Below are positions 15,278-62,640 of a stretch of 64,000 nt of DNA, one piece after another. The position numbers and the translations under genes are program-made. Below the pieces are notes generated by a model that saw only the letters and a program-made list of their open reading frames with translations, ran no database searches and was not told where the DNA came from. The number at the start of each line of letters is the position of its first letter. Within the stretch, counting starts at the first letter, position 1. Source of the stretch: Myxococcales bacterium (GTDB lineage: Bacteria > Myxococcota_A > Polyangia > Nannocystales > Nannocystaceae); contig JACKDW010000001.1 of NCBI GenBank assembly GCA_020633295.1, forward strand, positions 1,149,828-1,213,827, read 5' to 3'.

Positions 15278-15988
15278 TCACGGGCACGGCCGGTTGCACG
15301 CGTACACGTCGCCGCCGCAGTCGAGCATCTCGCCGGTGCACTGCGAGAACCCGCAGTTGGGGACCTCGCAGATCAGCAGGCAGCTCGCCTCGCCGACGCA
15401 CTGGATCATGTCGCAGCCCTCGTCCCCGCCGCAGGTGATCACGCAGTCGGAGGTCGAGGTGCACTGGATGTTGCAGGTGTGCGCGTCGATGCACGAGACC
15501 GCGCACTCGGCCGAGTTCCCGCACTGCACGCTGCAGCTGTCGGCGTTGTGACAGTCGAGCTCGCAGTCGCAGCCCGCGCAGTCGAGGTTGCACTCGAGCT
15601 CGCTGCACTGCTGCGCGTCGACGCAGGCGCCCGTGGTCGACGACGTCGTCGGCGCAGACGTCGTCGCGGCGCTCGTCATCACGGCGCTCGTCGCTGAGGT
15701 CGTCGTCATCGTCGCGGTCGCGGTCGCGGTCGCGGTCGCGGTCGTGGCCCCGCTCGTGGTGCCGCCGCTCGACGCGAGCGCGGTCGCCTCGCTCGCGCCG
15801 CCCGTGCCGCTCGTCGTCGCCGCGCTCGTCGCCGTCGCGCCGCTCGAGCCGCTCGTCGTCGCGGAGCTCGTCGCCGGGCCCGCGGTGGTCGCCGAGCCGC
15901 TCGAGCTCGACTCGTTGAACACCGGGTTGATATCCAGGCACGCCGCGCACAGCAGCGCGCACACGGCCCAGCGCGCGCGTCTCATCAC
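15278..15988 (-). CDS. Secreted cysteine-rich protein with S/T/A low-complexity linker and tandem Cx3-4C repeat module
   Basis: Signal/lipobox ALLCAACL. (AT)n dipeptide run from (gcgacc)n. C-terminus with about 28 Cys in 8-residue-period repeats (CSVQCGNSAECAVSCIDAHTCNIQCTSTSDCVITC...). Confidence 0.6.
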   Translation of the reverse strand: MMRRARWAVCALLCAACLDINPVFNESSSSGSATTAGPATSSATTSGSSGATATSAATTSGTGGASEATALASSGGTTSGATTATATATATATMTTTSATSAVMTSAATTSAPTTSSTTGACVDAQQCSELECNLDCAGCDCELDCHNADSCSVQCGNSAECAVSCIDAHTCNIQCTSTSDCVITCGGDEGCDMIQCVGEASCLLICEVPNCGFSQCTGEMLDCGGDVYACNRPCP

Positions 15989-16055: not shown

Positions 16056-19007
<2,952 letters not shown>

Positions 19008-19030: not shown

Positions 19031-19126
19031 GACGCCGACAGGACCGCCGACAGGACCGCCGAGACGACCGCCGAGCCGACCGCCGAGACGACCGCCGAGA
19101 TGACCGCCGAGATGACCGCCGAGCCT
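19031..19126. repeat. 12-bp tandem repeat x8 (accgccga[g/c]a[c/g/t][g/c/t]) in the M16/thioesterase divergent region
   Basis: gacgccgacagg accgccgacagg accgccgagacg accgccgagccg accgccgagacg accgccgagatg accgccgagatg accgccgagcct. Confidence 0.85.
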
Positions 19127-22081: not shown

Positions 22082-23023
22082 TCAGTCGCCGGGGCCGGGG
22101 ACGAAGTCCGGGTCGTTCGTCACGATGATGCGCGCGACCGCGACGGACTCGCGGAAGCTGAGCACCACCTCGTGCGGGCCCGCCGCCCAGTCCTGCGGCC
22201 ACGGGTCCTCGACGTACTCACACGGTCCGCCGTCCTCGGCCCGCCAGTTGATGTCGTTCCAGCCGTAGTTGCCCTGCATCCCGCCGTCGTTCTCGCAGTC
22301 GCCTTCGAAGATCGCGATCTCCTCGGGCTGCCCGTCGAGCTTGATGAAGTACGAGTCGGCCGACCCCTGGTTGAAGTAGCGCACCCAGATCCAGTAGCTG
22401 TCGCTGCACGGGACCTCCGGCGTCCAGACCACGCCGTTGTCGACGGGCTCGTTGCCCCCCTGCCACGTCGCGATCGCGCCCTCGCCCACCATGCTCATGG
22501 CGTGCTCCCAGCCGCCGAAGACCTCGGCCGCGTCGCCGTCGAGCGTGATCTTGACCGGCGGGTCATCGGGCGCGCACGCGTCACCGTCGCCGTCTCCATC
22601 TCCGTCGCCGTCTCCGTCGCCGTCTCCATCTCCGTCGCCGTCTCCGTCGCCGTCTCCGTCACCGTCGCCGACCGTGTCGGTCTCGCCGCCCAGGCACTCG
22701 CACGGCCCGTAGCCCGCGCCGTCGTCGTCGCAGACCTGCGCACCGTTGCCGCCGTCCGGACAAGCGCAGCCGACGCTCATCCCCGGCACACAGACGTCGC
22801 TGCCCGTGGACGCGTTGCCGGAGTCGGTGCCCGCCGACGGATCGCCGCTCGTGCTGCCGTCGGTGGACTCGCCGGTCTCCTCGCCGTCGGTGTCCGTGTC
22901 GGTGTCGGTGTCCGAGTCGGTGTCGGGCGCGGACGTGCTCGAGCCCGAGTCCCCGCAGGACGCCAGCAGCGGGAGCGCGAGACAGGCGTGTACAAACAAC
23001 CTCTTGATGTTTCGATCAACCAT
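22082..23023 (-). CDS. (GD)n-repeat lipoprotein with C-terminal globular domain (unknown function)
   Basis: Lipobox LPLLASCGDS. (TD)n. Cys-rich block. (GD)15 from (gacggc)n hexamer tract. Trp-rich C-domain. Confidence 0.65.
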   Translation of the reverse strand: MVDRNIKRLFVHACLALPLLASCGDSGSSTSAPDTDSDTDTDTDTDGEETGESTDGSTSGDPSAGTDSGNASTGSDVCVPGMSVGCACPDGGNGAQVCDDDGAGYGPCECLGGETDTVGDGDGDGDGDGDGDGDGDGDGDGDGDGDGDACAPDDPPVKITLDGDAAEVFGGWEHAMSMVGEGAIATWQGGNEPVDNGVVWTPEVPCSDSYWIWVRYFNQGSADSYFIKLDGQPEEIAIFEGDCENDGGMQGNYGWNDINWRAEDGGPCEYVEDPWPQDWAAGPHEVVLSFRESVAVARIIVTNDPDFVPGPGD

Positions 23024-39556: not shown

Positions 39557-41032
39557 TCACTCGGGCACGAACACGGCCTTGAGCGCGCCGCCGGTCATGT
39601 CCGAGTAGGTGTAGTGCACGCCGGCGATCGGCAGCTGCTCCGCCAGCTCGGTCTCGGGATCGAGCCGCCAGGCCCAGCCGTCGTAGTCGACGATCCACAC
39701 CTTGCCCTCGATGTCGATGCTGACGCCGACGGGCGTGCCGCACTGCGGGAAGTAGTGGTTCTTCACCCAGGTCTTGGTGTTGCCGTCGACCTGGATCAGC
39801 CCGCAGCCGGCGCCCCCGTTCGCGTTGGACGCGACCCAGACCTGGTAGTTGAGGTCGACCGCGATCCCGCGGTGACACGAGTTCGTGTCGGGGATGAGGT
39901 GGAAGGTCTGCAGCTGCGGGTCGAAGTAGGAGATCGGGCCGCAGTAGCCGCCGAACCACGGCAGGCCGTTGAAGTCGACCGTCATGCCGTAGGGCGTGTG
40001 CCCCATGCCCGAGTTCCAGTGCGAGAGCTCGAGCGTCTTGCTGTTGACGCGCCAGAGGTCGTCCTGGAACACCCCGGTGAACCACACGTTGCCGTCGCCG
40101 TCCATGGCCGCGCCGTACGGCGCGTGCGAGGCCGGCCAGCCGTCGATCTGCACCGTCGCGTCCTGCACGCCCGAGTTGATGTCGATGCGGCCCATGTAGG
40201 CGATGCCGTTGCTCGTGTGCCAGCCGACCCAGAGCTTCTGCGCGTCGTACTCGCAGGTACCCTGGTTAAAAATGCCAGGGTCGAAGGTCGTCCCGCGCGG
40301 GCCGCCGACGTACTCGGCGATCGGCGGGTTCACGGTCGTCGTCCAGATCCGGCACTCCTCCTGGTCGTAGGGGACGAGCGTGTCCTTGTCGGGCGAGGTC
40401 GTGATCATCCCGTCGTTGTTCTTGTCGATGCAGTCCTCGACCTGCGACGCGTACATGCTGACGGTCCCGGTGCCGCGGTTGGAGACCGCGGCGTAGCGGC
40501 CGTCGATGTTGACCGAGGTGCGCGACGGGCTCGCGGCCGCGGGGTTGGGATCGCTGTAGTAGCGCGCGAGCTCGGTCATCGACTGGGTGTCGATCTTCGA
40601 GATGCTGCCCTGCGCGGTGTTGGCGACCCAGAGGTAGCTGTAGTCGACGTCGCCGTTGCCGCCGCCGCCCATGTTGCAGTCCGCGTCGCCGTCTCCGTCT
40701 CCGTCGCCGTCCCCGTCGCCGTCCCCGTCGCCGTCTCCGTCGCCGTCTCCGTCGCCGTCTCCGTCGCCGTCTCCGTCGCCGTCTCCGTCACCCGCGGTCG
40801 AGCCCGACCCGCTCATCGACGAGTCGGAGCCAGCCGGCCCCGCCGACGTCTCGCTGCCGCCGTCGCTCACCGATCCCGCGGACGCGTCGCTCGCGGCGCT
40901 CGCGTTGCTGTCGCCGCTGTCGCTCGAGGACTCGCTCTCGCGCGTGCTGTCGTCGCCGCACGCCGACGCGATCAGGGTCAGCGCGCCGAGGAGCCCGAGC
41001 GCGCCCCGCCAGTAACCGGTTTGATAAGACAT
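39557..41032 (-). CDS. (GD)n-repeat lipoprotein with C-terminal beta-propeller-like domain
   Basis: Lipobox LTLIASACGDD. S/D-rich linker. (GD)19 from (gacggc)n. Repeated hydrophobic-Trp blades (NGIAYMGRI, GNVWFTG, GKVWIVD). Confidence 0.65.
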   Translation of the reverse strand: MSYQTGYWRGALGLLGALTLIASACGDDSTRESESSSDSGDSNASAASDASAGSVSDGGSETSAGPAGSDSSMSGSGSTAGDGDGDGDGDGDGDGDGDGDGDGDGDGDGDGDGDGDADCNMGGGGNGDVDYSYLWVANTAQGSISKIDTQSMTELARYYSDPNPAAASPSRTSVNIDGRYAAVSNRGTGTVSMYASQVEDCIDKNNDGMITTSPDKDTLVPYDQEECRIWTTTVNPPIAEYVGGPRGTTFDPGIFNQGTCEYDAQKLWVGWHTSNGIAYMGRIDINSGVQDATVQIDGWPASHAPYGAAMDGDGNVWFTGVFQDDLWRVNSKTLELSHWNSGMGHTPYGMTVDFNGLPWFGGYCGPISYFDPQLQTFHLIPDTNSCHRGIAVDLNYQVWVASNANGGAGCGLIQVDGNTKTWVKNHYFPQCGTPVGVSIDIEGKVWIVDYDGWAWRLDPETELAEQLPIAGVHYTYSDMTGGALKAVFVPE

Positions 41033-41246: not shown

Positions 41247-43181
41247 TCAGGGGTCGAGCGGCACGAGCGCCGCGGCGTCGAGGTCCTCGTTGTCGCCGAT
41301 GTCGTCGACCGCGCCGTTGCCGAGCTGCCCGGCGCTCCCGCGACCCCAGCAGCGCACCGCGCCGTCAAAGGCGCGCGCGCAGGTGTGCGCCCCGCCGGCG
41401 ACGAGCCCAGCCTGCGTCTCGAGCGTGAGCGCACCGACGGCGCTCGGCACCTCCCCGGGGTCGTCGCCGAGGTTCTCCGAGTCGCCGTAGCCCAGCCGAC
41501 CGTTCGCGCCGGCGCCCCAGCACAGCGCGCCGGCGCCCCCGGCGAGGATCGTGCACGTGTGCTCGGCGCCTGCGGCCACCGTCTCGTTGTCGCCGCCCGT
41601 CGAGATGAAGCCCGCGTTCATCACCGTGGTGAGCGCGCTGTCGCCGATGTTCGCCGTGTCGCCCTGCCCGAGCTGACCCGAGGCGCCCTGACCCCAGCAC
41701 AGCAGCTCGCGGATGGTGTTGACCTCGAACACGCCGCAGGAGAACCGCCCGCCGACGCGCAGCGCGACCGCGTCCGCGTCGACCAGCACGTACGGGCTCG
41801 CGCCCGCGCTCTCCGTGACCATGGCGCCGTAGTCGTCGGTGTCGTCGTGCCCGAGCTGCCCCTGATCGTTGCGACCCCAGCAGCGGATCTTGCCCCCCGT
41901 CTGCGTCGAGACCAGGGCGCAGCTGTGATCGCCGCCCGCGGCGATCGCCTGCACGAGGGCGTCGTCGGGGAACAACAGCGGCGTCAGGTCGACGAGCGAC
42001 TCGTCGTCGCCGAGCGACTCGGCCGAGCCGCGACCGAGCTGCCCGAAGGTCCCTCGCCCCCAGCACAGCGCGCCGCCGTCCTTCAACATCACGCAGGTGT
42101 GCGCGTCGCCGGCCGCGACGCTCACGACGACGGCGCCGACGGGCAGCGGCACCGGCCCGACCTCGGCGGGGACCTCGTCGTCCCCCACGTCGTCCGTGTT
42201 GCCGTAGCCCAGCTGCCCCTCGGCGTTGTCGCCCCAGCAGAACAGCGCGCCCTCGTCCGTGTACGCGCAGGTGTGCCGTCCGCCGGCCGCGAGCCCGAGC
42301 ACGCGGTACTGCGGGCCGCCGAGATCGACGTCGAGGTAGGGCAGCGACCCGGGGCTGTTGCCGACGGTGTTCGTGTCGCCGTAGCCGAGGCGCCCGTCGC
42401 TCCCCTTCCCCCAGCAGCGGATCGCGCCGCCCCACAGCAGCGCGCAGGTGTGCTCATCGCCCGCGACGAGCGCCCGCGCGCCGCCCTTGAACACGCAGAA
42501 CGACTCGCACAGCGCCGCGTCCTCGTCGTCGGCAGACGGGTCGCACTGCTCGTGCAGATCGTGCACGGCGTTGCCGCAGGTGGTCCACTGGCAGCTGTTG
42601 TTGCACATCGGCCCGCCCTCGCAGGCCTCCTCCAGCCCCGGGCCCTGCTGCACCACGCCGTCGCCGCAGCTCGCGGCCACGCAGGCGTTCGAACAGGCGT
42701 CGAGGTCGTCGAGGTTGCCGTCGTCGCACTCTTCGTCGTCGTCGAGCACGCCGTCGCCGCACACGCCACCGCTGGTCGTCGTGCCGTCGGTGGTCGTGCC
42801 CGTCGAGCTCTCGCTGGTCGAGCTCGTCGAGCTCGTCAGGCCCTCCGTCGTGCTCGACGTCAGCGGGTCCGTGGAGGACGCGTCCCCCGTGGTCTCGACC
42901 GTGGTCCCCGGCCCCTCGGTCGCGGGCGCGGTCGTCGTCCCCTCGCTCGTCGCCGCGCCGTCGCAGCCCTCGAGGCCGAGGCTCTCGAACGAGAGGCCGT
43001 CAGTGTGGCAGTGCCCGGGCGTCGCCGTGCAGCCGGCGCCGAGGCACATCACCGCACCGAGCGCCGCGACGGACAGCGCGGCCCACAGCTCCAGATCTCG
43101 ACGCACCACCGTCGCTATCGTACCGCGGACCTGGCCGCCCGCGCAGGTCCAGCTGATCGCGCGCTTCCGCGCCGCGCCCAC
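41247..43181 (-). CDS. Lipoprotein with Myxococcus-type cysteine-rich repeats followed by RCC1-like repeats (about 6)
   Basis: CGDGVLDDDEECDDGN and following Cys repeats. Repeated CWGxxxxGQLGxG blades (RCWGKGSDGRLGYG, FCWGDNAEGQLGYG, LCWGRGTFGQLGRG, RCWGRNDQGQLGHD, LCWGQGASGQLGQG, RCWGRGSAGQLGNG). Start uncertain (lipobox LGAGCTA). Confidence 0.7.
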   Translation of the reverse strand: MGAARKRAISWTCAGGQVRGTIATVVRRDLELWAALSVAALGAVMCLGAGCTATPGHCHTDGLSFESLGLEGCDGAATSEGTTTAPATEGPGTTVETTGDASSTDPLTSSTTEGLTSSTSSTSESSTGTTTDGTTTSGGVCGDGVLDDDEECDDGNLDDLDACSNACVAASCGDGVVQQGPGLEEACEGGPMCNNSCQWTTCGNAVHDLHEQCDPSADDEDAALCESFCVFKGGARALVAGDEHTCALLWGGAIRCWGKGSDGRLGYGDTNTVGNSPGSLPYLDVDLGGPQYRVLGLAAGGRHTCAYTDEGALFCWGDNAEGQLGYGNTDDVGDDEVPAEVGPVPLPVGAVVVSVAAGDAHTCVMLKDGGALCWGRGTFGQLGRGSAESLGDDESLVDLTPLLFPDDALVQAIAAGGDHSCALVSTQTGGKIRCWGRNDQGQLGHDDTDDYGAMVTESAGASPYVLVDADAVALRVGGRFSCGVFEVNTIRELLCWGQGASGQLGQGDTANIGDSALTTVMNAGFISTGGDNETVAAGAEHTCTILAGGAGALCWGAGANGRLGYGDSENLGDDPGEVPSAVGALTLETQAGLVAGGAHTCARAFDGAVRCWGRGSAGQLGNGAVDDIGDNEDLDAAALVPLDP

Positions 43182-44662: not shown

Positions 44663-45970
44663 TTACTCGATGATCGCCTCGCACGCGCACTCGATGACGA
44701 CCTTGACCTCGCCCTCCTGGATCGCAACGCACGCGTCGCCGACGAGCTCGATCTCGTCGGGCGCGTTGAGCTGCCAGCCGTCGGGGTCCTCGTACGGCAC
44801 CTCGTCGTCGTTGATCGTCACGCGGCACTCTGACTCCATGCCGTCGACGACCTCGACGTTGAGCGCGAGCTTGCAGTCGCGCACGCCGTTGATGATCGTG
44901 TTGAACGCGTCGACGAGGCCCTGGCTGTCGTTGGCCTTCCAGAACTCCGCGTCGTCGGGCGCCATCTGGCCGAGCCCCGCGTTGGCGAGGTCCTGCAGGT
45001 GCTGATCGCTCACGTCGTTGCCGACGCTGATGACGAACACCTGCACGCCCGCGGTGTAGGCGTTGGCGGCGGCCGCGACCGAGACGGCCTGGCCGTTCTG
45101 CGGATCGGGCTCGGCGCAGGTGTCGGGCTCGCCGTCGGTCGCCAGCACGATGACCTTGGGTCCGTCGTCTGGCAGCGCGAGCAGCGTCGGCACCACGGCG
45201 TCGATCGCCTCGCCGGTCGGCGTGTCGTCCTCGGGGACGTTCTGCGAGTAGAGCGCGTCCATGGCCGCGGAGTTGTTCAGCGCCACGGGCGTCTCGGCCA
45301 TGACCGGGCACTCGCCGAAGTCGAAGCCGTTGAAGCTGGTGTAGAGCGAGAGGCCGAAGTGGACCTGGGACTCGTACTGCGCGACGACGCCGACGTCCTG
45401 GTCAAACAGCGCCTCGTAGACCGCCTCCCAGCGCGTCTGGCCCGAGAAGTTCTGGGTCATGCTCCCCGACTGATCGACGAGCACGACGACGTAGGGCTCG
45501 GTCGGCGCGAACAGCACGTTCGCGCCGCAGATCTCCTCGGTGTCCGAGCCGGTCTCGGTCTCCCCGTTCGTGTTGGAGTTCGAGTTCGAGTTCGAGTTCG
45601 AGTTCGAGTTCGAGTTCGAGCTCGAGTCCGTCGCGGAGTTCGAGTCGCTGTTGGAGTTGGAGTCGGAGTTCGAGTCGGTCCCGGCGCTCGAGTTCGAGTC
45701 GCTGTTGGAGTCCGAGCCCGCCGAGTCCGACGCGGTCTGCGAGTCCGAGTTCGACGCGCTCGCCGGGCCCGCGCTCGCCGAGTCGCTGTTGCTGTCGCTC
45801 GGGCCGTTGCTGTCGCTCAGCGACATCGCCTGGCACGTCTCGAGGCTCTGGCTGCCCGCGAAGCCGTCATCGCTGCAGTTGTTGCCGCACGCGGGGACGA
45901 CCACGGCCGCGGCGGCGAACGAGAACACCCCGCCGATCGCGGGGATAACGCGTCGAATTACGAATTGCAT
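44663..45970 (-). CDS. Second vWA-domain lipoprotein, paralogous architecture, with (SN)n/(SD)n repeat linker
   Basis: Lipobox VVVPACGNN. (NS)n from (gagttc)n. MIDAS VLVDQSGSM. LATDGEPD. C-terminal Cys pair CACE. Confidence 0.7.
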   Translation of the reverse strand: MQFVIRRVIPAIGGVFSFAAAAVVVPACGNNCSDDGFAGSQSLETCQAMSLSDSNGPSDSNSDSASAGPASASNSDSQTASDSAGSDSNSDSNSSAGTDSNSDSNSNSDSNSATDSSSNSNSNSNSNSNSNSNTNGETETGSDTEEICGANVLFAPTEPYVVVLVDQSGSMTQNFSGQTRWEAVYEALFDQDVGVVAQYESQVHFGLSLYTSFNGFDFGECPVMAETPVALNNSAAMDALYSQNVPEDDTPTGEAIDAVVPTLLALPDDGPKVIVLATDGEPDTCAEPDPQNGQAVSVAAAANAYTAGVQVFVISVGNDVSDQHLQDLANAGLGQMAPDDAEFWKANDSQGLVDAFNTIINGVRDCKLALNVEVVDGMESECRVTINDDEVPYEDPDGWQLNAPDEIELVGDACVAIQEGEVKVVIECACEAIIE

Positions 45971-46024
45971 GTATTTCGCTCCGGCACCCGCGCCCGGTCG
46001 ACGTGGGTGTTCGGGCATATTTTC

Positions 46025-61608: not shown

Positions 61609-62573
61609 TCATGGCAACGGGTTCGCGCAGCGAAAGCCGACGTCGCTCGGCGCGTCGGCGGGCGCACCGTTGCCGCGGCTCGCCGCGCGCAGCAGCGACG
61701 GGCTGGTGCTGACGAAGCTCCCGCCGCGGAGCGAGCGGCGCTCGATCGGCGACGCGTCCGGGCCCGGCGGGTCGACGAGCGGCCCGCTCGCGTAGTAGTC
61801 GGCGTCGTACCAGTCGCGCACCCACTCCTTCACGTTTCCTGACATGTCCAAAACGCCATATGGAGACTGACCGCTCGGGCGCGAGCCGACCGGCTCGCTC
61901 ATGTCGGCGCCGCAGCCCGCGATGCTGCTGACCGCGTGCTCGCAGCTCGGCGCGGCGTTGCCCCAGGGGAACTCCGCGCCGCTCTCGCCGCGCGCCGCTT
62001 TCTCCCACTCCGCCTCCGTCGGCAGGCGCATCCCCGCCCACGCGCAGTAGCTCGCGGCGCCCTGCCACGCGACGCAGTTGATCGGGTGCTCCTCGCGCCC
62101 AGGCTTGCCCCAGTTGCACAGCGCGTCCGCGCCGCTCGGCGCCTGGCACTTGCCCGCGTCGACGCAGACGGCGTACGCCGACACGGTGACCTCGAGCGTG
62201 TGGATCTCGAAGCCGCCCAGCCAGACGCTCTCGACCGGCATCTCGTCGCTGGCGTCGCTGGACCCGCGGATAAACATGCCTTCAGGGACATATGTGACCA
62301 GGAGCCCGTCGCCGCTCCCGGTCCCGCCGGTGTCGCTGTCGCCGTCCCCGTCCCCGTCTCCGTCCCCGTCCCCGTCCCCGTCGCCCGTCGGGCCCGAGCT
62401 CGTGGTCTGCGTGCCGGGCTCGGTCGCGTCGGTCGCGTTCGCGCCGCTCGTCCCCGGCTCGCCGGTCACCTCGTCGGTGGTCGGGCCCCCGAGCCCCACC
62501 GTGTAGGCGGCGTTGTCCTCGAGACAGGCGGCGACGAGCCCCGCGAGCAGGACTGGGAGGAGCTTGCGCGTCA
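61609..62573 (-). CDS. FGE-sulfatase (SUMF1/formylglycine-generating-enzyme-like) domain lipoprotein with (GD)n repeat
   Basis: Lipobox GLVAACLE. (GD)7. FGE core RLPTEAEWEKAARG, PWGN, DMSGNVKEWVRDWY, RGGSF. Confidence 0.7.
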
Positions 62574-62640
62574 CCGCGGCATCATACCGCGAAGCGCCGC
62601 AGCGCCCGATCTCGCGGCGCACGCTCGCGACGCGCGTGGC

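What the first reader, a model, noticed from the sequence alone, without database searches (positions are those of the whole stretch)
22082..23023. Family of (GD)n-repeat lipoproteins encoded by (gacggc)n hexanucleotide tracts: slippage-prone microsatellites inside coding regions
Three unrelated-domain lipoproteins share the same N-terminal architecture: lipobox, S/T/D-rich linker, then uninterrupted Gly-Asp dipeptide repeats. They are 22082-23023 with 15 GD, 39557-41032 with 19 GD, and 61609-62573 with 7 GD. The repeats are encoded by perfect (ggcgac)/(gtcgcc)n tracts of 42-114 bp (for example 22570-22665, 40690-40795, 62320-62380). Perfect hexamer tracts of this length are unusual in bacterial coding DNA. 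They would change copy number in-frame by slipped-strand mispairing, so linker length probably varies between strains. The GD repeats could be Ca2+-binding or flexible acidic spacers projecting the globular domain from the membrane.
Basis: seen in the sequence. Interest (0 to 1): 0.5.

Follow-up and report, generated by a model that had tools for sequence, protein, structure and literature searches.

The report
Conserved Gly-Asp stalks in myxobacterial lipoproteins
Three unrelated lipoproteins of a myxobacterium carry runs of 8-18 Gly-Asp pairs in a long floppy acidic tether, but the DNA is not a perfect microsatellite, and the one close relative available has exactly the same run, so these look like selected protein stalks, not mutation hotspots.

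Summary
The protein-level observation is real. Three minus-strand lipobox ORFs carry uninterrupted (GD)15, (GD)18 and (GD)8, next to a CBM35-like beta-sandwich, a 7-bladed beta-propeller and an FGE-sulfatase domain.

The DNA claim is wrong. The tracts mix GGA/GGC/GGG/GGT and GAC/GAT. Two adjacent GGCGAC units occur nowhere in the window. The rare codon GGA makes up 15/41 Gly codons in the tracts against 33/1392 outside.

AlphaFold2 gives no confident structure from the lipid Cys to the domain (about 105-125 aa) in A and B.

Across 75 homologues of B, linker length is tight (quartiles 104/111/118) but the sequence is not conserved.

The GD block itself is the most constrained part. A 90%-identical orthologue has exactly 18 GD, with 6 synonymous changes, 0 non-synonymous changes and 0 indels, while the flanking linker has 3 indels. 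A paralogue pair in another genome shows 27 third-position and 0 replacement changes over 67 residues.

Repeat-number polymorphism does occur in this family, but was seen only for a TTDAS repeat, not for GD.

Best reading: a protein-level-selected, polyanionic, disordered stalk. It is a new variant of known lipoprotein tethers and dipeptide-repeat stalks. Ca2+ binding is plausible but untested.

The parts
22082..23023 (-). Gene A: 313-aa lipoprotein (signal peptide, TD/ST-rich stretch, 6-Cys module, (GD)15, CBM35-like domain)
   Evidence: ORF. Eighteen homologues, all Myxococcota MAGs with a conserved Cys23.
22955..23023 (-). A signal peptide and lipobox (MVDRNIKRLFVHACLALPLLAS|C)
   Evidence: Sequence inspection. 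The Cys is at least 90% conserved in alignment A1.
22799..22954 (-). A membrane-proximal low-complexity stretch, including (TD)5 (aa 24-75)
   Evidence: pLDDT below 50.
22694..22798 (-). A 6-Cys module DVCVPGMSVGCACPDGGNGAQVCDDDGAGYGPCEC (aa 76-110)
   Evidence: The same module, followed by GD-rich sequence, occurs in the unrelated proteins P0019-P0023. No Pfam or NCBIfam hit.
22580..22669 (-). A (GD)15 tract. DNA has period 30 (3.1 copies, 95%); Gly codons are GGC 6, GGA 7, GGT 2
22109..22576 (-). A C-terminal beta-sandwich, CBM35/CBM6-like (aa 150-305)
   Evidence: AF2 pLDDT about 90. Foldseek best hit 2w47_A (CBM35), E 2.7e-5, TM(target) 0.78.
39557..41032 (-). Gene B: 491-aa lipoprotein (signal peptide, S-rich stretch, (GD)18, beta-propeller)
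   Evidence: 866 homologues, annotated 'lyase / Vgb family', Nannocystaceae.
40958..41032 (-). B signal peptide and lipobox (…LTLIASA|C)
   Evidence: Cys25 is at least 90% conserved in A4.
40793..40957 (-). B membrane-proximal S/D/G/A-rich stretch (aa 26-80), fast-evolving
   Evidence: pN/pS 0.52 and 2 of the 3 linker indels against L001; the third lies just after the tract.
40685..40792 (-). B (GD)18 tract. GGA/GGC alternate; perfect period-12 run at 40725-40789
   Evidence: Identical length in L001, with 6 synonymous and 0 non-synonymous differences.
39560..40645 (-). B 7-bladed beta-propeller (aa 130-491)
   Evidence: Pfam Vgb_lyase 36.8 bits, below the cutoff of 50. AF2 pLDDT about 90. Foldseek 1l0q_A YVTN propeller E 4.8e-15 and Vgb lyase 2z2p.
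61609..62574 (-). Gene C: 321-aa lipoprotein (signal peptide, T/G/P/E-rich stretch, (GD)8, FGE-sulfatase domain)
62524..62574 (-). C signal peptide and lipobox (VTRKLLPVLLAGLVAA|C), GTG start
62386..62523 (-). C membrane-proximal low-complexity stretch (aa 18-63)
62338..62385 (-). C (GD)8 tract. Gly codons are GGG 5, GGC 2, GGA 1
61624..62289 (-). C FGE-sulfatase (SUMF1/EgtB/PvdO-type) domain
   Evidence: Pfam PF03781, E 4e-48.
44663..46018 (-). Same class, different dipeptide: VWA-domain lipoprotein with an (SN)/(SD) repeat linker. 45576-45620 is a perfect (GAGTTC)7.5
15278..15988 (-). Same class: Cys-rich lipoprotein with an S/T/A/G linker containing (AT)6, encoded by a perfect (GTCGCG)5.7 at 15711-15744

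Best explanation
The (GD)n runs are the domain-proximal part of a long (about 80-125 aa), intrinsically disordered, strongly anionic N-terminal tether. The tether joins the lipid-modified Cys of secreted lipoproteins to a globular binding or enzymatic domain. The organism is a Nannocystaceae/Polyangia-type myxobacterium.

Proposed history and function:
- The tracts were built by tandem duplication of 12-30-nt units.
- They are now held by purifying selection on the amino-acid sequence and, where it can be seen, on the number of units.
- Their mixed synonymous codons leave no perfect hexamer microsatellite.
- Functionally they act as a flexible polyanionic stalk. Every second residue carries a negative charge and every other residue is Gly. 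This keeps the domain away from the anionic membrane or polysaccharide surface and supplies the long unstructured N-terminus that Gram-negative outer-membrane lipoproteins commonly need.

Shown: the anatomy, the lack of predicted structure, the codon pattern, the conservation statistics and the family-wide length constraint.
Inferred: lipidation, cellular location and the stalk function.
Speculative: divalent-cation binding and protease resistance as the reason why the exact GD sequence is conserved.
For: (1) No predicted structure. AF2 models of A and B have pLDDT below 50 and no secondary structure from the N-terminus to residue ~150 (A) or ~128 (B). They have confident domains afterwards.

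(2) Generality. Thirteen lipobox ORFs in the 64 kb window are followed by a low-complexity stretch, and where I computed charge (12 of them) it is net-negative in 11. Three more contain dipeptide repeats: SN/SD, AT and TD.

(3) The B family behaves as a length-constrained spacer. In 75 homologues the linker-length quartiles are 104/111/118 (sd 13.9). Composition is T24/G17/S16/A11/D9.5 %, and median net charge is -13. The repeat type differs from protein to protein: PTTDG, TTDPS, TTDAS, SN, SD, GDGDGDPTTT.

(4) The GD block is conserved at the protein level.
- Window B against L001: 36/36 aa, Sd 6, Nd 0, no indel. pN/pS is 0.52 in the adjacent linker (2 of the pair's 3 linker indels lie there, the third just after the tract) and 0.19 in the propeller. 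P(0 replacements at the propeller's rate) = 0.018.
- Tandem paralogues in L013: a (GDGDGDPTTT)n block is 67/67 aa identical with 27 nucleotide differences, all at third positions. P = 0.001 at the globular rate.

(5) Codons.
- GGA is 15/41 in the tracts, 33/1392 outside (Fisher p = 2.5e-13) and 2/108 in isolated GD dipeptides.
- No two GGCGAC units are adjacent. P = 0.042 for A and 0.0038 for B, given their codon counts.
- Predicted RNA self-structure is about half that of an all-GGCGAC tract, and weaker than in 94-97% of synonymous re-encodings.

(6) Literature. Half of E. coli outer-membrane lipoproteins have disordered N-terminal linkers longer than 22 aa. These are needed for efficient Lol sorting and can be replaced by artificial GS linkers of adequate length (10.1101/2021.01.05.425367). 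None of the three proteins has the +2 Lys that marks inner-membrane lipoproteins in M. xanthus (PMC3222651).
Against: - Only one close orthologue pair exists for a long uninterrupted tract. A and C have no relative above 54% and 50% identity.
- Any two pure (GD)n arrays align at 100%. The conservation test therefore rests on both arrays being pure and of equal length. Concerted evolution within arrays could contribute to that.
- The next homologues of B (78% and 75% identity) have TD/PTD-rich linkers and no GD run. GD is therefore replaceable over longer times, which fits a generic spacer better than a sequence-specific module.
- A generic spacer does not explain why replacements are rarer in the GD block than in the folded domain.
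- The codon pattern could be a hitch-hiking by-product of amplifying a GGAGAC-GGCGAC founder unit. The RNA-structure tests are individually marginal (0.03-0.06).
- Low pLDDT is not proof of disorder.
- No signal-peptide or lipoprotein predictor was available, and B's lipobox has Ala at -3.
Confidence: 0.65

Rival explanations
1. First reader's model. The tracts are slippage-prone in-frame microsatellites. Their copy number changes frequently, so linker length differs between strains, as in a size-variation or contingency mechanism.
For: - The tracts are tandem DNA repeats with higher-order units: a 65-nt perfect period-12 run in B and period 30 at 95% in A.
- Window B and L001 have different internal codon periodicities (12 nt against 24 nt). 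Differences fall at units 5, 9 and 13, which implies unit-level turnover or conversion since they diverged.
- In the same protein family, four variants with identical globular parts differ by whole TTDAS/TTDGT units (482/492/497 aa). That repeat is only 92% perfect at the DNA level.
Against: - There is no perfect hexamer tract, and GGCGAC is never adjacent to itself.
- A and B are less perfect than random synonymous encodings.
- GD number is identical (18 against 18) across a divergence of ~29% at 4-fold sites, while three indels accumulated in the neighbouring non-repeat linker.
- No GD-number change appears in four further close comparisons.
- Linker length is tightly constrained across the family.
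Confidence: 0.15
2. The GD block is a specific divalent-cation (Ca2+/Mg2+) binding element. Overlapping DxDxDG-like units bind Ca2+ and stiffen, compact or cross-link the stalk. This is why the exact sequence and number are conserved.
For: - (GD)n is a continuous series of D-x-D-x-D-G units, the linear core of the Dx[DN]xDG calcium loop (PMC3123361).
- Disordered Asp-rich 'condensed-charge' and Excalibur-like motifs bind Ca2+ at about 100 uM, and Asp is preferred over Glu (PMC8391695).
- Replacements are absent in GD blocks although synonymous change is high.
- Among GD-bearing A-family members, the domain-proximal segment holds 10-15 GD with charge -12 to -17 (the lower bound of 10 is a hand count for P0006).
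- A Cys of the globular domain follows the block within 2-3 residues in A, B and several homologues, which is reminiscent of DxDxDGxxCE.
Against: - There are no Pfam hits to EF-hand, Excalibur, TSP3 or RTX families at E <= 0.1.
- The distal bidentate acidic ligand of canonical loops is missing, and position 12 of the loop is Gly.
- There are no hydrophobic residues, which the IDP study found to favour binding.
- Close homologues do without GD.
- No binding data exist.
Confidence: 0.3
3. The sequence is selected for protease resistance. Gly and Asp offer no preferred site to the many secreted serine proteases and metalloproteases of predatory myxobacteria, so almost any replacement would create a cleavable stalk.
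For: - There is strong per-site constraint without predicted structure.
- All alternative linkers in the family are built from a similarly restricted alphabet (T, S, G, D, P, A), with a median of about 7% hydrophobic residues and few basic residues.
- By analogy, staphylococcal SD repeats need glycosylation to resist a host protease (PMC3794999).
Against: This is purely inferential: no protease data exist for this organism. The fast-evolving S-rich part of the same linker tolerates many replacements.
Confidence: 0.2
4. The tracts are sequencing or assembly artefacts.
For: None found.
Against: - An independent MAG assembly (JAUIKS010000015) carries the same (GD)18 in the syntenic orthologue, with different synonymous codons.
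- GD blocks recur in many independent assemblies.
- The tracts keep the reading frame and are 48-108 nt long.
Confidence: 0.01

Closest known systems
Intrinsically disordered N-terminal linkers of Gram-negative outer-membrane lipoproteins (RcsF, Pal, NlpD; El Rayes et al., 10.1101/2021.01.05.425367)
   Same: An unstructured segment between the lipidated Cys and the globular domain. Length matters more than sequence across the family. No inner-membrane retention signal.
   Different: The segment here is about 4-5 times longer (about 100 aa against more than 22), strongly acidic and built from tandem repeats. The GD sub-block is sequence-conserved, which the 'any disordered sequence will do' result does not predict.
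Ser-Asp dipeptide-repeat (SDR / region R) stalks of staphylococcal Clf/Sdr adhesins (PMC3794999)
   Same: A long X-Asp dipeptide repeat between the anchor and the ligand-binding domain, proposed to project the domain from the cell surface. It is encoded by an imperfect higher-order DNA repeat. B's linker gives weak composition-driven hits to these models.
   Different: GD rather than SD, so there is no hydroxyl for the SdgA/SdgB glycosylation. The anchor is an N-terminal lipid rather than a C-terminal LPXTG. The organism is a Gram-negative myxobacterium. The runs are 8-18 units against 25-275. There is no homology (12-16 bits against cutoffs of 999 or more).
Size-variable lipoproteins with in-frame tandem repeats (Mycoplasma hyorhinis Vlp; reviewed in PMC7954426 and PMC6080569, found but not read; the properties given are from my own knowledge)
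   Same: Lipoproteins whose extracellular part contains in-frame tandem repeats that can change in number.
   Different: Vlp repeats are 12-13-aa units at the C-terminus with documented high-frequency size variation and promoter phase variation. Here no GD-number variation was seen, and the DNA is codon-scrambled.
Pro/Thr/Ser-rich interdomain linkers of carbohydrate-active enzymes and CBM-containing proteins (own knowledge)
   Same: Low-complexity, extended, protease-tolerant linkers next to a CBM-type domain. Homologues of A and B use PTT, TTDPS and similar repeats in the same position.
   Different: The GD chemistry (no Pro, no hydroxyl, charge -0.5 per residue) and the attachment to a lipid anchor.
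Dx[DN]xDG calcium loops and 'condensed-charge' Ca2+ motifs of disordered proteins (PMC3123361, PMC8391695)
   Same: The D-x-D-x-D-G spacing and the Asp-rich disordered context.
   Different: There is no flanking secondary structure, no distal bidentate Glu/Asp at the canonical position and no profile match. Binding is untested.

Membership tests
Bacterial lipoprotein (Lgt/LspA substrate) | N-terminal signal peptide with a basic n-region and a hydrophobic h-region | tested here: met
   By inspection. A: MVDRNIKR + LFVHACLALPLLAS. B: R9 + ALGLLGALTLIASA (no K/R in the first 7 residues). C: VTRK + LLPVLLAGLVAA. No SignalP or LipoP tool was available.
Bacterial lipoprotein (Lgt/LspA substrate) | Lipobox [LVI][ASTVI][GAS]C, with the Cys conserved in homologues | tested here: met
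   A has LASC and C has VAAC, both canonical. B has ASAC (Ala at -3, non-canonical but within the looser PROSITE-type pattern as I recall it). The Cys is at least 90% conserved in A1 and A4. Most of the 120 B homologues have G/A-C lipoboxes.
Bacterial lipoprotein (Lgt/LspA substrate) | Actual diacylglyceryl modification and membrane location | not testable with these tools
   Only an extrapolation is possible: no +2 Lys, the M. xanthus inner-membrane rule, and C has Ala at +7, the M. xanthus matrix rule (PMC3222651).
Disordered N-terminal lipoprotein linker (El Rayes et al.) | Unstructured from Cys+1 to the first secondary-structure element of the globular domain, more than 22 residues | tested here: met
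   A: no DSSP element and pLDDT below 50 up to residue ~150. B: up to residue ~128, with the first strand at 133. C was not modelled. The 6-Cys module of A may fold, but the 19-sequence alignment did not resolve it.
Disordered N-terminal lipoprotein linker (El Rayes et al.) | The linker is required for efficient Lol-dependent sorting | not testable with these tools
   This is an experimental property.
Hypermutable simple-sequence (contingency / size-variation) locus | A long perfect repeat of a short unit | tested here: not met
   The longest perfect period-6 runs are 11, 17 and 23 nt. GGCGACGGCGAC is absent from the window. There is, however, a 65-nt perfect period-12 run in B.
Hypermutable simple-sequence (contingency / size-variation) locus | Copy number differs between close relatives | tested here: not met
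   18 against 18 GD in the 90%-identical orthologue. There is no GD-number change in clusters P0002 (3 members), P0010 (3 members), P0113/P0270 or the paralogues P0084/P0269. The sample is small. A TTDAS repeat in the same family does vary.
Clf/Sdr SD-repeat MSCRAMM adhesins | SD dipeptide repeat, LPXTG sortase signal and an IgG-like A domain | tested here: not met
   NCBIfam scores are 12-16 bits against cutoffs of 999-2500, restricted to the low-complexity region. The C-termini lack LPXTG. The domains are a CBM-like sandwich, a propeller and FGE.
Dx[DN]xDG / EF-hand / Excalibur / TSP3 calcium-binding motifs | The linear D-x-[DN]-x-D-G core | tested here: met
   This is trivially true of (GD)n by sequence. 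It is a resemblance only.
Dx[DN]xDG / EF-hand / Excalibur / TSP3 calcium-binding motifs | A distal acidic bidentate ligand or CE signature and flanking structural context; a match to the family profile | tested here: not met
   Position 12 of the loop is Gly. No EF-hand, Excalibur or TSP_3 Pfam hit at E <= 0.1. No structure is predicted.
Dx[DN]xDG / EF-hand / Excalibur / TSP3 calcium-binding motifs | Measured Ca2+ binding | not testable with these tools
   This needs ITC or NMR on a peptide.
RTX nonapeptide repeats (GGxGxDxUx) | A GG doublet and a conserved large hydrophobic residue in each 9-residue unit | tested here: not met
   The tracts contain only alternating G and D.

The most novel reading that the evidence does not exclude
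GD blocks are a previously undescribed, sequence- and number-constrained polyanionic stalk module of Nannocystaceae-type lipoproteins. Their function would depend on the exact Gly-Asp alternation, most plausibly multivalent Ca2+/Mg2+ binding that sets the stiffness or reach of the tether. Their genes would be kept genetically stable by selected synonymous 'scrambling', using the otherwise rare GGA codon, which prevents a perfect microsatellite and strong self-pairing.
Probability: 0.2. Interest if true: 0.55.

Novelty: new variant of a known kind. Interest (0 to 1): 0.35.

Why it matters
Low-complexity linkers are usually dismissed as neutral spacers or as mutational hotspots. Here a pure dipeptide repeat is the most strongly conserved part of its protein: zero replacements against 25-50% change at synonymous sites. 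Its codons are arranged so that no perfect microsatellite exists.

If this holds more widely, it gives a clean natural system for two questions:
- What constrains the sequence of a disordered region: charge patterning, cation binding or protease evasion?
- Do genomes actively de-repeat the DNA that encodes repeats they need?

It also documents that myxobacterial lipoproteins carry tethers about 100 aa long, with family-specific length control. This bears on how far lipoprotein domains reach in or beyond the envelope. It is not a new kind of system.

Tried and rejected
- Looked for the source genome and closer relatives. The exact-sequence look-up of B found nothing. The metagenome scan found no relative closer than 49%. 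The genome scan gave a single 90% orthologue. A and C have no relative above 54% and 50%, so no orthologue test was possible for them.
- A PDB sequence search with the GD tract found nothing meaningful (best E 0.15).
- Literature searches for 'Gly-Asp repeat', 'GD repeats' and variants, and for myxobacterial low-complexity lipoprotein linkers, returned nothing relevant.
- The Pfam 'TrAA12-like' hits (19 and 14 bits, below the cutoff of 30.9) lie in the low-complexity stretch. I dismissed them as compositional.
- I considered and rejected SD-repeat family membership, RTX and TSP3/Excalibur membership, and an assembly artefact (see the membership table).
- I considered using the all-against-all HMMER job to census GD repeats. 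I did not run it because composition-bias correction would suppress a pure GD query.
- An automated parse of A-family linkers failed for several sequences. For those, only manual counts are used.
Full report
**What is there.** The window has 72% G+C. At the three stated places there are minus-strand ORFs that begin with a signal peptide ending in a lipobox Cys, continue with a low-complexity acidic/hydroxylic stretch, and then have an uninterrupted Gly-Asp run just before a globular domain.
- A (22082-23023, 313 aa): LLAS|C, (GD)15 at nt 22580-22669.
- B (39557-41032, 491 aa): IASA|C, (GD)18 at nt 40685-40792.
- C (61609-62574, 321 aa, GTG start): LVAA|C, (GD)8 at nt 62338-62385.

A six-frame scan finds (GD)>=3 nowhere else. 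(GGNGAY)4 matches 32 times, all inside the three tracts, against 0.00 expected from shuffles.

**The globular parts are unrelated.**
- C is an FGE-sulfatase/SUMF1-type domain (Pfam E 4e-48).
- B is a 7-bladed beta-propeller. It scores 36.8 bits on Vgb_lyase, below the cutoff of 50. The AF2 model has pLDDT about 90. Foldseek gives the 1l0q YVTN propeller at E 4.8e-15 and Vgb lyase 2z2p.
- A has no Pfam or NCBIfam hit. AF2 gives a confident beta-sandwich at residues 151-305 that matches CBM35/CBM6/CBM36 modules (2w47_A, E 2.7e-5, TM 0.78 on the target).
- A also carries a 6-Cys module (aa 76-110) between the TD/ST-rich stretch and the GD run.

Written as codons, the tracts mix GGA, GGC, GGG and GGT, and GAC and GAT.
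- Two adjacent GGCGAC units do not occur anywhere in the 64 kb.
- The longest perfect period-6 runs in the tracts are 11, 17 and 23 nt.
- The real periodicities are higher-order. B is (GGAGAC GGCGAC)n with a 65-nt perfect period-12 run. A has a 30-nt unit, 3.1 copies at 95%.
- GGA is a rare codon here: 33/1392 Gly codons in 30 confident genes, and 2/108 in isolated GD dipeptides. It supplies 15/41 Gly codons in the tracts (Fisher p = 2.5e-13).
- Given the observed numbers of GGCGAC units, the chance that none are adjacent is 0.042 (A) and 0.0038 (B).
- I re-encoded each peptide 500 times with the genome's codon usage. The median longest perfect hexamer run was 29 nt for the A- and B-length tracts (21 nt for C), so A and B are less perfect than chance.
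- Those re-encodings also give stronger RNA self-pairing. Actual MFE is -16.9, -22.5 and -6.2 kcal/mol. Simulated means are -24.5, -30.0 and -10.7. All-GGCGAC versions give -39.3, -49.0 and -17.5. Only 3-6% of simulations are weaker than the actual tracts.
- The truly perfect hexamer runs of the window lie in two other lipoprotein linkers: (GAGTTC)7.5 encoding SN repeats at 45576-45620, and (GTCGCG)5.7 encoding AT repeats at 15711-15744.

**Context: a general habit of this lineage.** I noted 13 lipobox ORFs in the window, each followed by a low-complexity stretch. By a crude hydrophobicity heuristic applied to nine of them this runs 25-114 aa in eight, and where charge was computed (12 of the 13) it is net-negative in 11. 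They precede VWA, C-type lectin, RCC1-like, peptidase and other domains.

Homologues of A (18 proteins, 32-54% identity in the CBM-like domain) and of B (866 hits) come from Nannocystaceae, Enhygromyxa and other Polyangia genomes and MAGs. They nearly all begin with a lipobox.

Their linkers use different repeats: (PTTDG)n, (TTDPS)n, (TTDAS)7, SN, SD, GT/GS-rich, or GDGDGD triplets separated by P/T. In 75 B homologues where both the lipobox and the domain start could be recognised:
- Linker-length quartiles are 104/111/118 (sd 13.9). Window B is 105 and L001 is 114.
- Composition is T24, G17, S16, A11, D9.5, P5.5 %.
- Median net charge is -13, and about 7% of residues are hydrophobic.

So length and composition are conserved while sequence is not. 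This is the signature of a spacer. AF2 predicts no structure from Cys+1 to the domain in A and B.

**Test of the slippage prediction.** The single close relative is a syntenic orthologue of B in MAG JAUIKS010000015 ('Polyangia bacterium Co_bin.371', L001). It is 90.6% identical in the propeller, with 28.8% divergence at 4-fold sites.
- It has exactly 18 GD, alignable in register. There are 6 differences at Gly third positions and none elsewhere.
- The rest of the linker is only 62.5% identical and has indels of 3, 5 and 1 aa.
- Nei-Gojobori counts give pN/pS of 0.72 (signal peptide), 0.52 (pre-GD linker), 0.00 (GD tract; Sd 6, Nd 0) and 0.19 (propeller).
- Zero replacements in the tract has P = 0.018 at the propeller's rate and 8e-10 under neutrality.

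A second, independent case comes from two tandem paralogues in another Nannocystaceae contig (L013).
- They share a 67-aa (GDGDGDPTTT)n block that is 67/67 identical.
- It has 27 nucleotide differences, all at third codon positions (pS 0.52 against 0.18 in the globular part).
- P(0 replacements) = 0.001 at the globular rate.

Clusters of near-identical GD-bearing homologues (P0002 with 3 members, P0010 with 3 members, P0113/P0270) also show no change in GD number.

Among the GD-bearing members of the A family, the domain-proximal segment holds 10-15 GD, and 12 in four of them (and hand counts).

By contrast, four variants of another B-family protein have identical globular parts but differ by whole TTDAS/TTDGT units (482/492/492/497 aa). 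That repeat is 92% perfect at the DNA level. Repeat-number polymorphism is therefore real in these linkers and does not need perfect DNA, but I did not see it for GD.

The window and L001 tracts have different internal codon periodicities (12 nt against 24 nt; differences at units 5, 9 and 13). This points to unit-level turnover or conversion with no net length change.

**Caveats.**
- Two pure arrays of equal length necessarily align at 100%. The inference rests on purity and equal length being maintained while synonymous variants accumulate.
- Concerted evolution may contribute, although it would also be expected to erase the synonymous heterogeneity that is observed.
- There is one orthologue pair for a long uninterrupted tract, and none for A or C.
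- At 78% and 75% identity, B's homologues have TD/PTD-rich linkers without GD. The constraint is therefore lineage-specific.

**Mechanism.** My best-supported reading (confidence about 0.65) is a disordered, polyanionic stalk at the domain-proximal end of a roughly 100-aa lipoprotein tether.
- It originated by tandem duplication.
- It is now kept by purifying selection on the peptide.
- It is encoded in a way that avoids a perfect microsatellite, whether by selection or by the history of its founder unit.

This agrees with the finding that disordered N-terminal linkers are common in outer-membrane lipoproteins. They are needed for efficient Lol sorting and can be replaced by artificial GS sequences of sufficient length (10.1101/2021.01.05.425367). 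It also agrees with the proposed wall-spanning role of SD dipeptide repeats in staphylococcal adhesins (PMC3794999).

Neither precedent explains why the GD sequence itself is so conserved. Two non-exclusive sub-hypotheses do:
- Multivalent Ca2+/Mg2+ binding by the D-x-D-x-D-G series. Disordered Asp-rich motifs bind Ca2+ at about 100 uM (PMC8391695; motif definition in PMC3123361).
- Resistance to the organism's own secreted proteases.

Both are untested. No calcium-motif profile matches, and canonical distal ligands are absent.

**Location.** It is inferred only. None of the three proteins has the +2 Lys typical of M. xanthus inner-membrane lipoproteins, and C has the +7 Ala associated with matrix lipoproteins (PMC3222651).

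**Verdict.**
The acidic flexible spacer reading holds. The hypervariable microsatellite reading is not seen and is disfavoured for GD. Ca2+ binding remains open.
- I found no description of bacterial GD-repeat stalks in the searchable literature. They are best classed as a new variant of two known kinds of element: disordered lipoprotein tethers and dipeptide-repeat stalks.
- Interest is moderate to low. The unexpected element is the very strong protein-level conservation and the codon pattern of a pure dipeptide repeat.

Noticed in passing
window 44663-46018 (-), repeat 45566-45716: A VWA-domain lipoprotein whose ~114-aa linker is built from SN/SD dipeptide repeats. 45576-45620 is a perfect (GAGTTC)7.5, the longest perfect hexamer run in the window. 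It is a better candidate for slippage than any GD tract.
   Followed up: partly
window 15278-15988 (-), repeat 15711-15744: A 236-aa lipobox protein (LLCAAC) with an S/T/A/G-rich linker containing (AT)6, encoded by a perfect (GTCGCG)5.7, followed by a Cys-rich C-terminal region. My GC3 filter missed it and it was found only by listing ORFs.
   Followed up: partly
window 22694-22798 (aa 76-110 of A): A 6-Cys module, DVCVPGMSVGCACPDGGNGAQVCDDDGAGYGPCEC, with no Pfam or NCBIfam match. The same module occurs in otherwise unrelated proteins (P0019-P0023), each time followed directly by GD- or D/G-rich sequence. This suggests a recurrent 'Cys-module + GD block' cassette.
   Followed up: partly
window 19033-19123: A 12-nt tandem repeat (CGCCGAGACGAC, 7.6 copies, 93%). 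It apparently lies between a minus-strand M16-peptidase-like lipoprotein gene (16056-19007) and a plus-strand thioesterase-like ORF that starts just downstream. Its function is unknown.
   Followed up: no
L013 8394-9890 and 10001-11494: In tandem paralogues of the B family, synonymous divergence inside the GD/PTTT repeat block (pS 0.52) is about three times that of the globular domain (pS 0.18), although no amino acid differs. Possible causes are gene conversion confined to the globular part, or diversifying pressure on repeat codons. This is unexplained.
   Followed up: partly
window 62338-62385 (C tract, sense strand): C's tract uses GGG for 5 of 8 Gly codons, giving GGGGAC GGGGAC GGGGAC … on the mRNA-sense strand. 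This is a run of G4 blocks that could in principle form a G-quadruplex. It was not evaluated.
   Followed up: no
windows A, B and homologues (for example P0081, P0084, P0112, P0113): The GD block always sits at the domain-proximal end of the linker. In A, B and several homologues it is followed within 1-3 residues by the first conserved Cys of the globular domain (GDAC, GDADC, GDGDPC). This is reminiscent of, but not matching, the Excalibur DxDxDGxxCE signature.
   Followed up: partly
window 41247-43106 (-) and L001 557-2512: The gene upstream of B is an RCC1-repeat (RLD) lipoprotein with an ST-rich linker and a DUF4215-type Cys-rich repeat. It is syntenic in the related MAG.
   Followed up: partly
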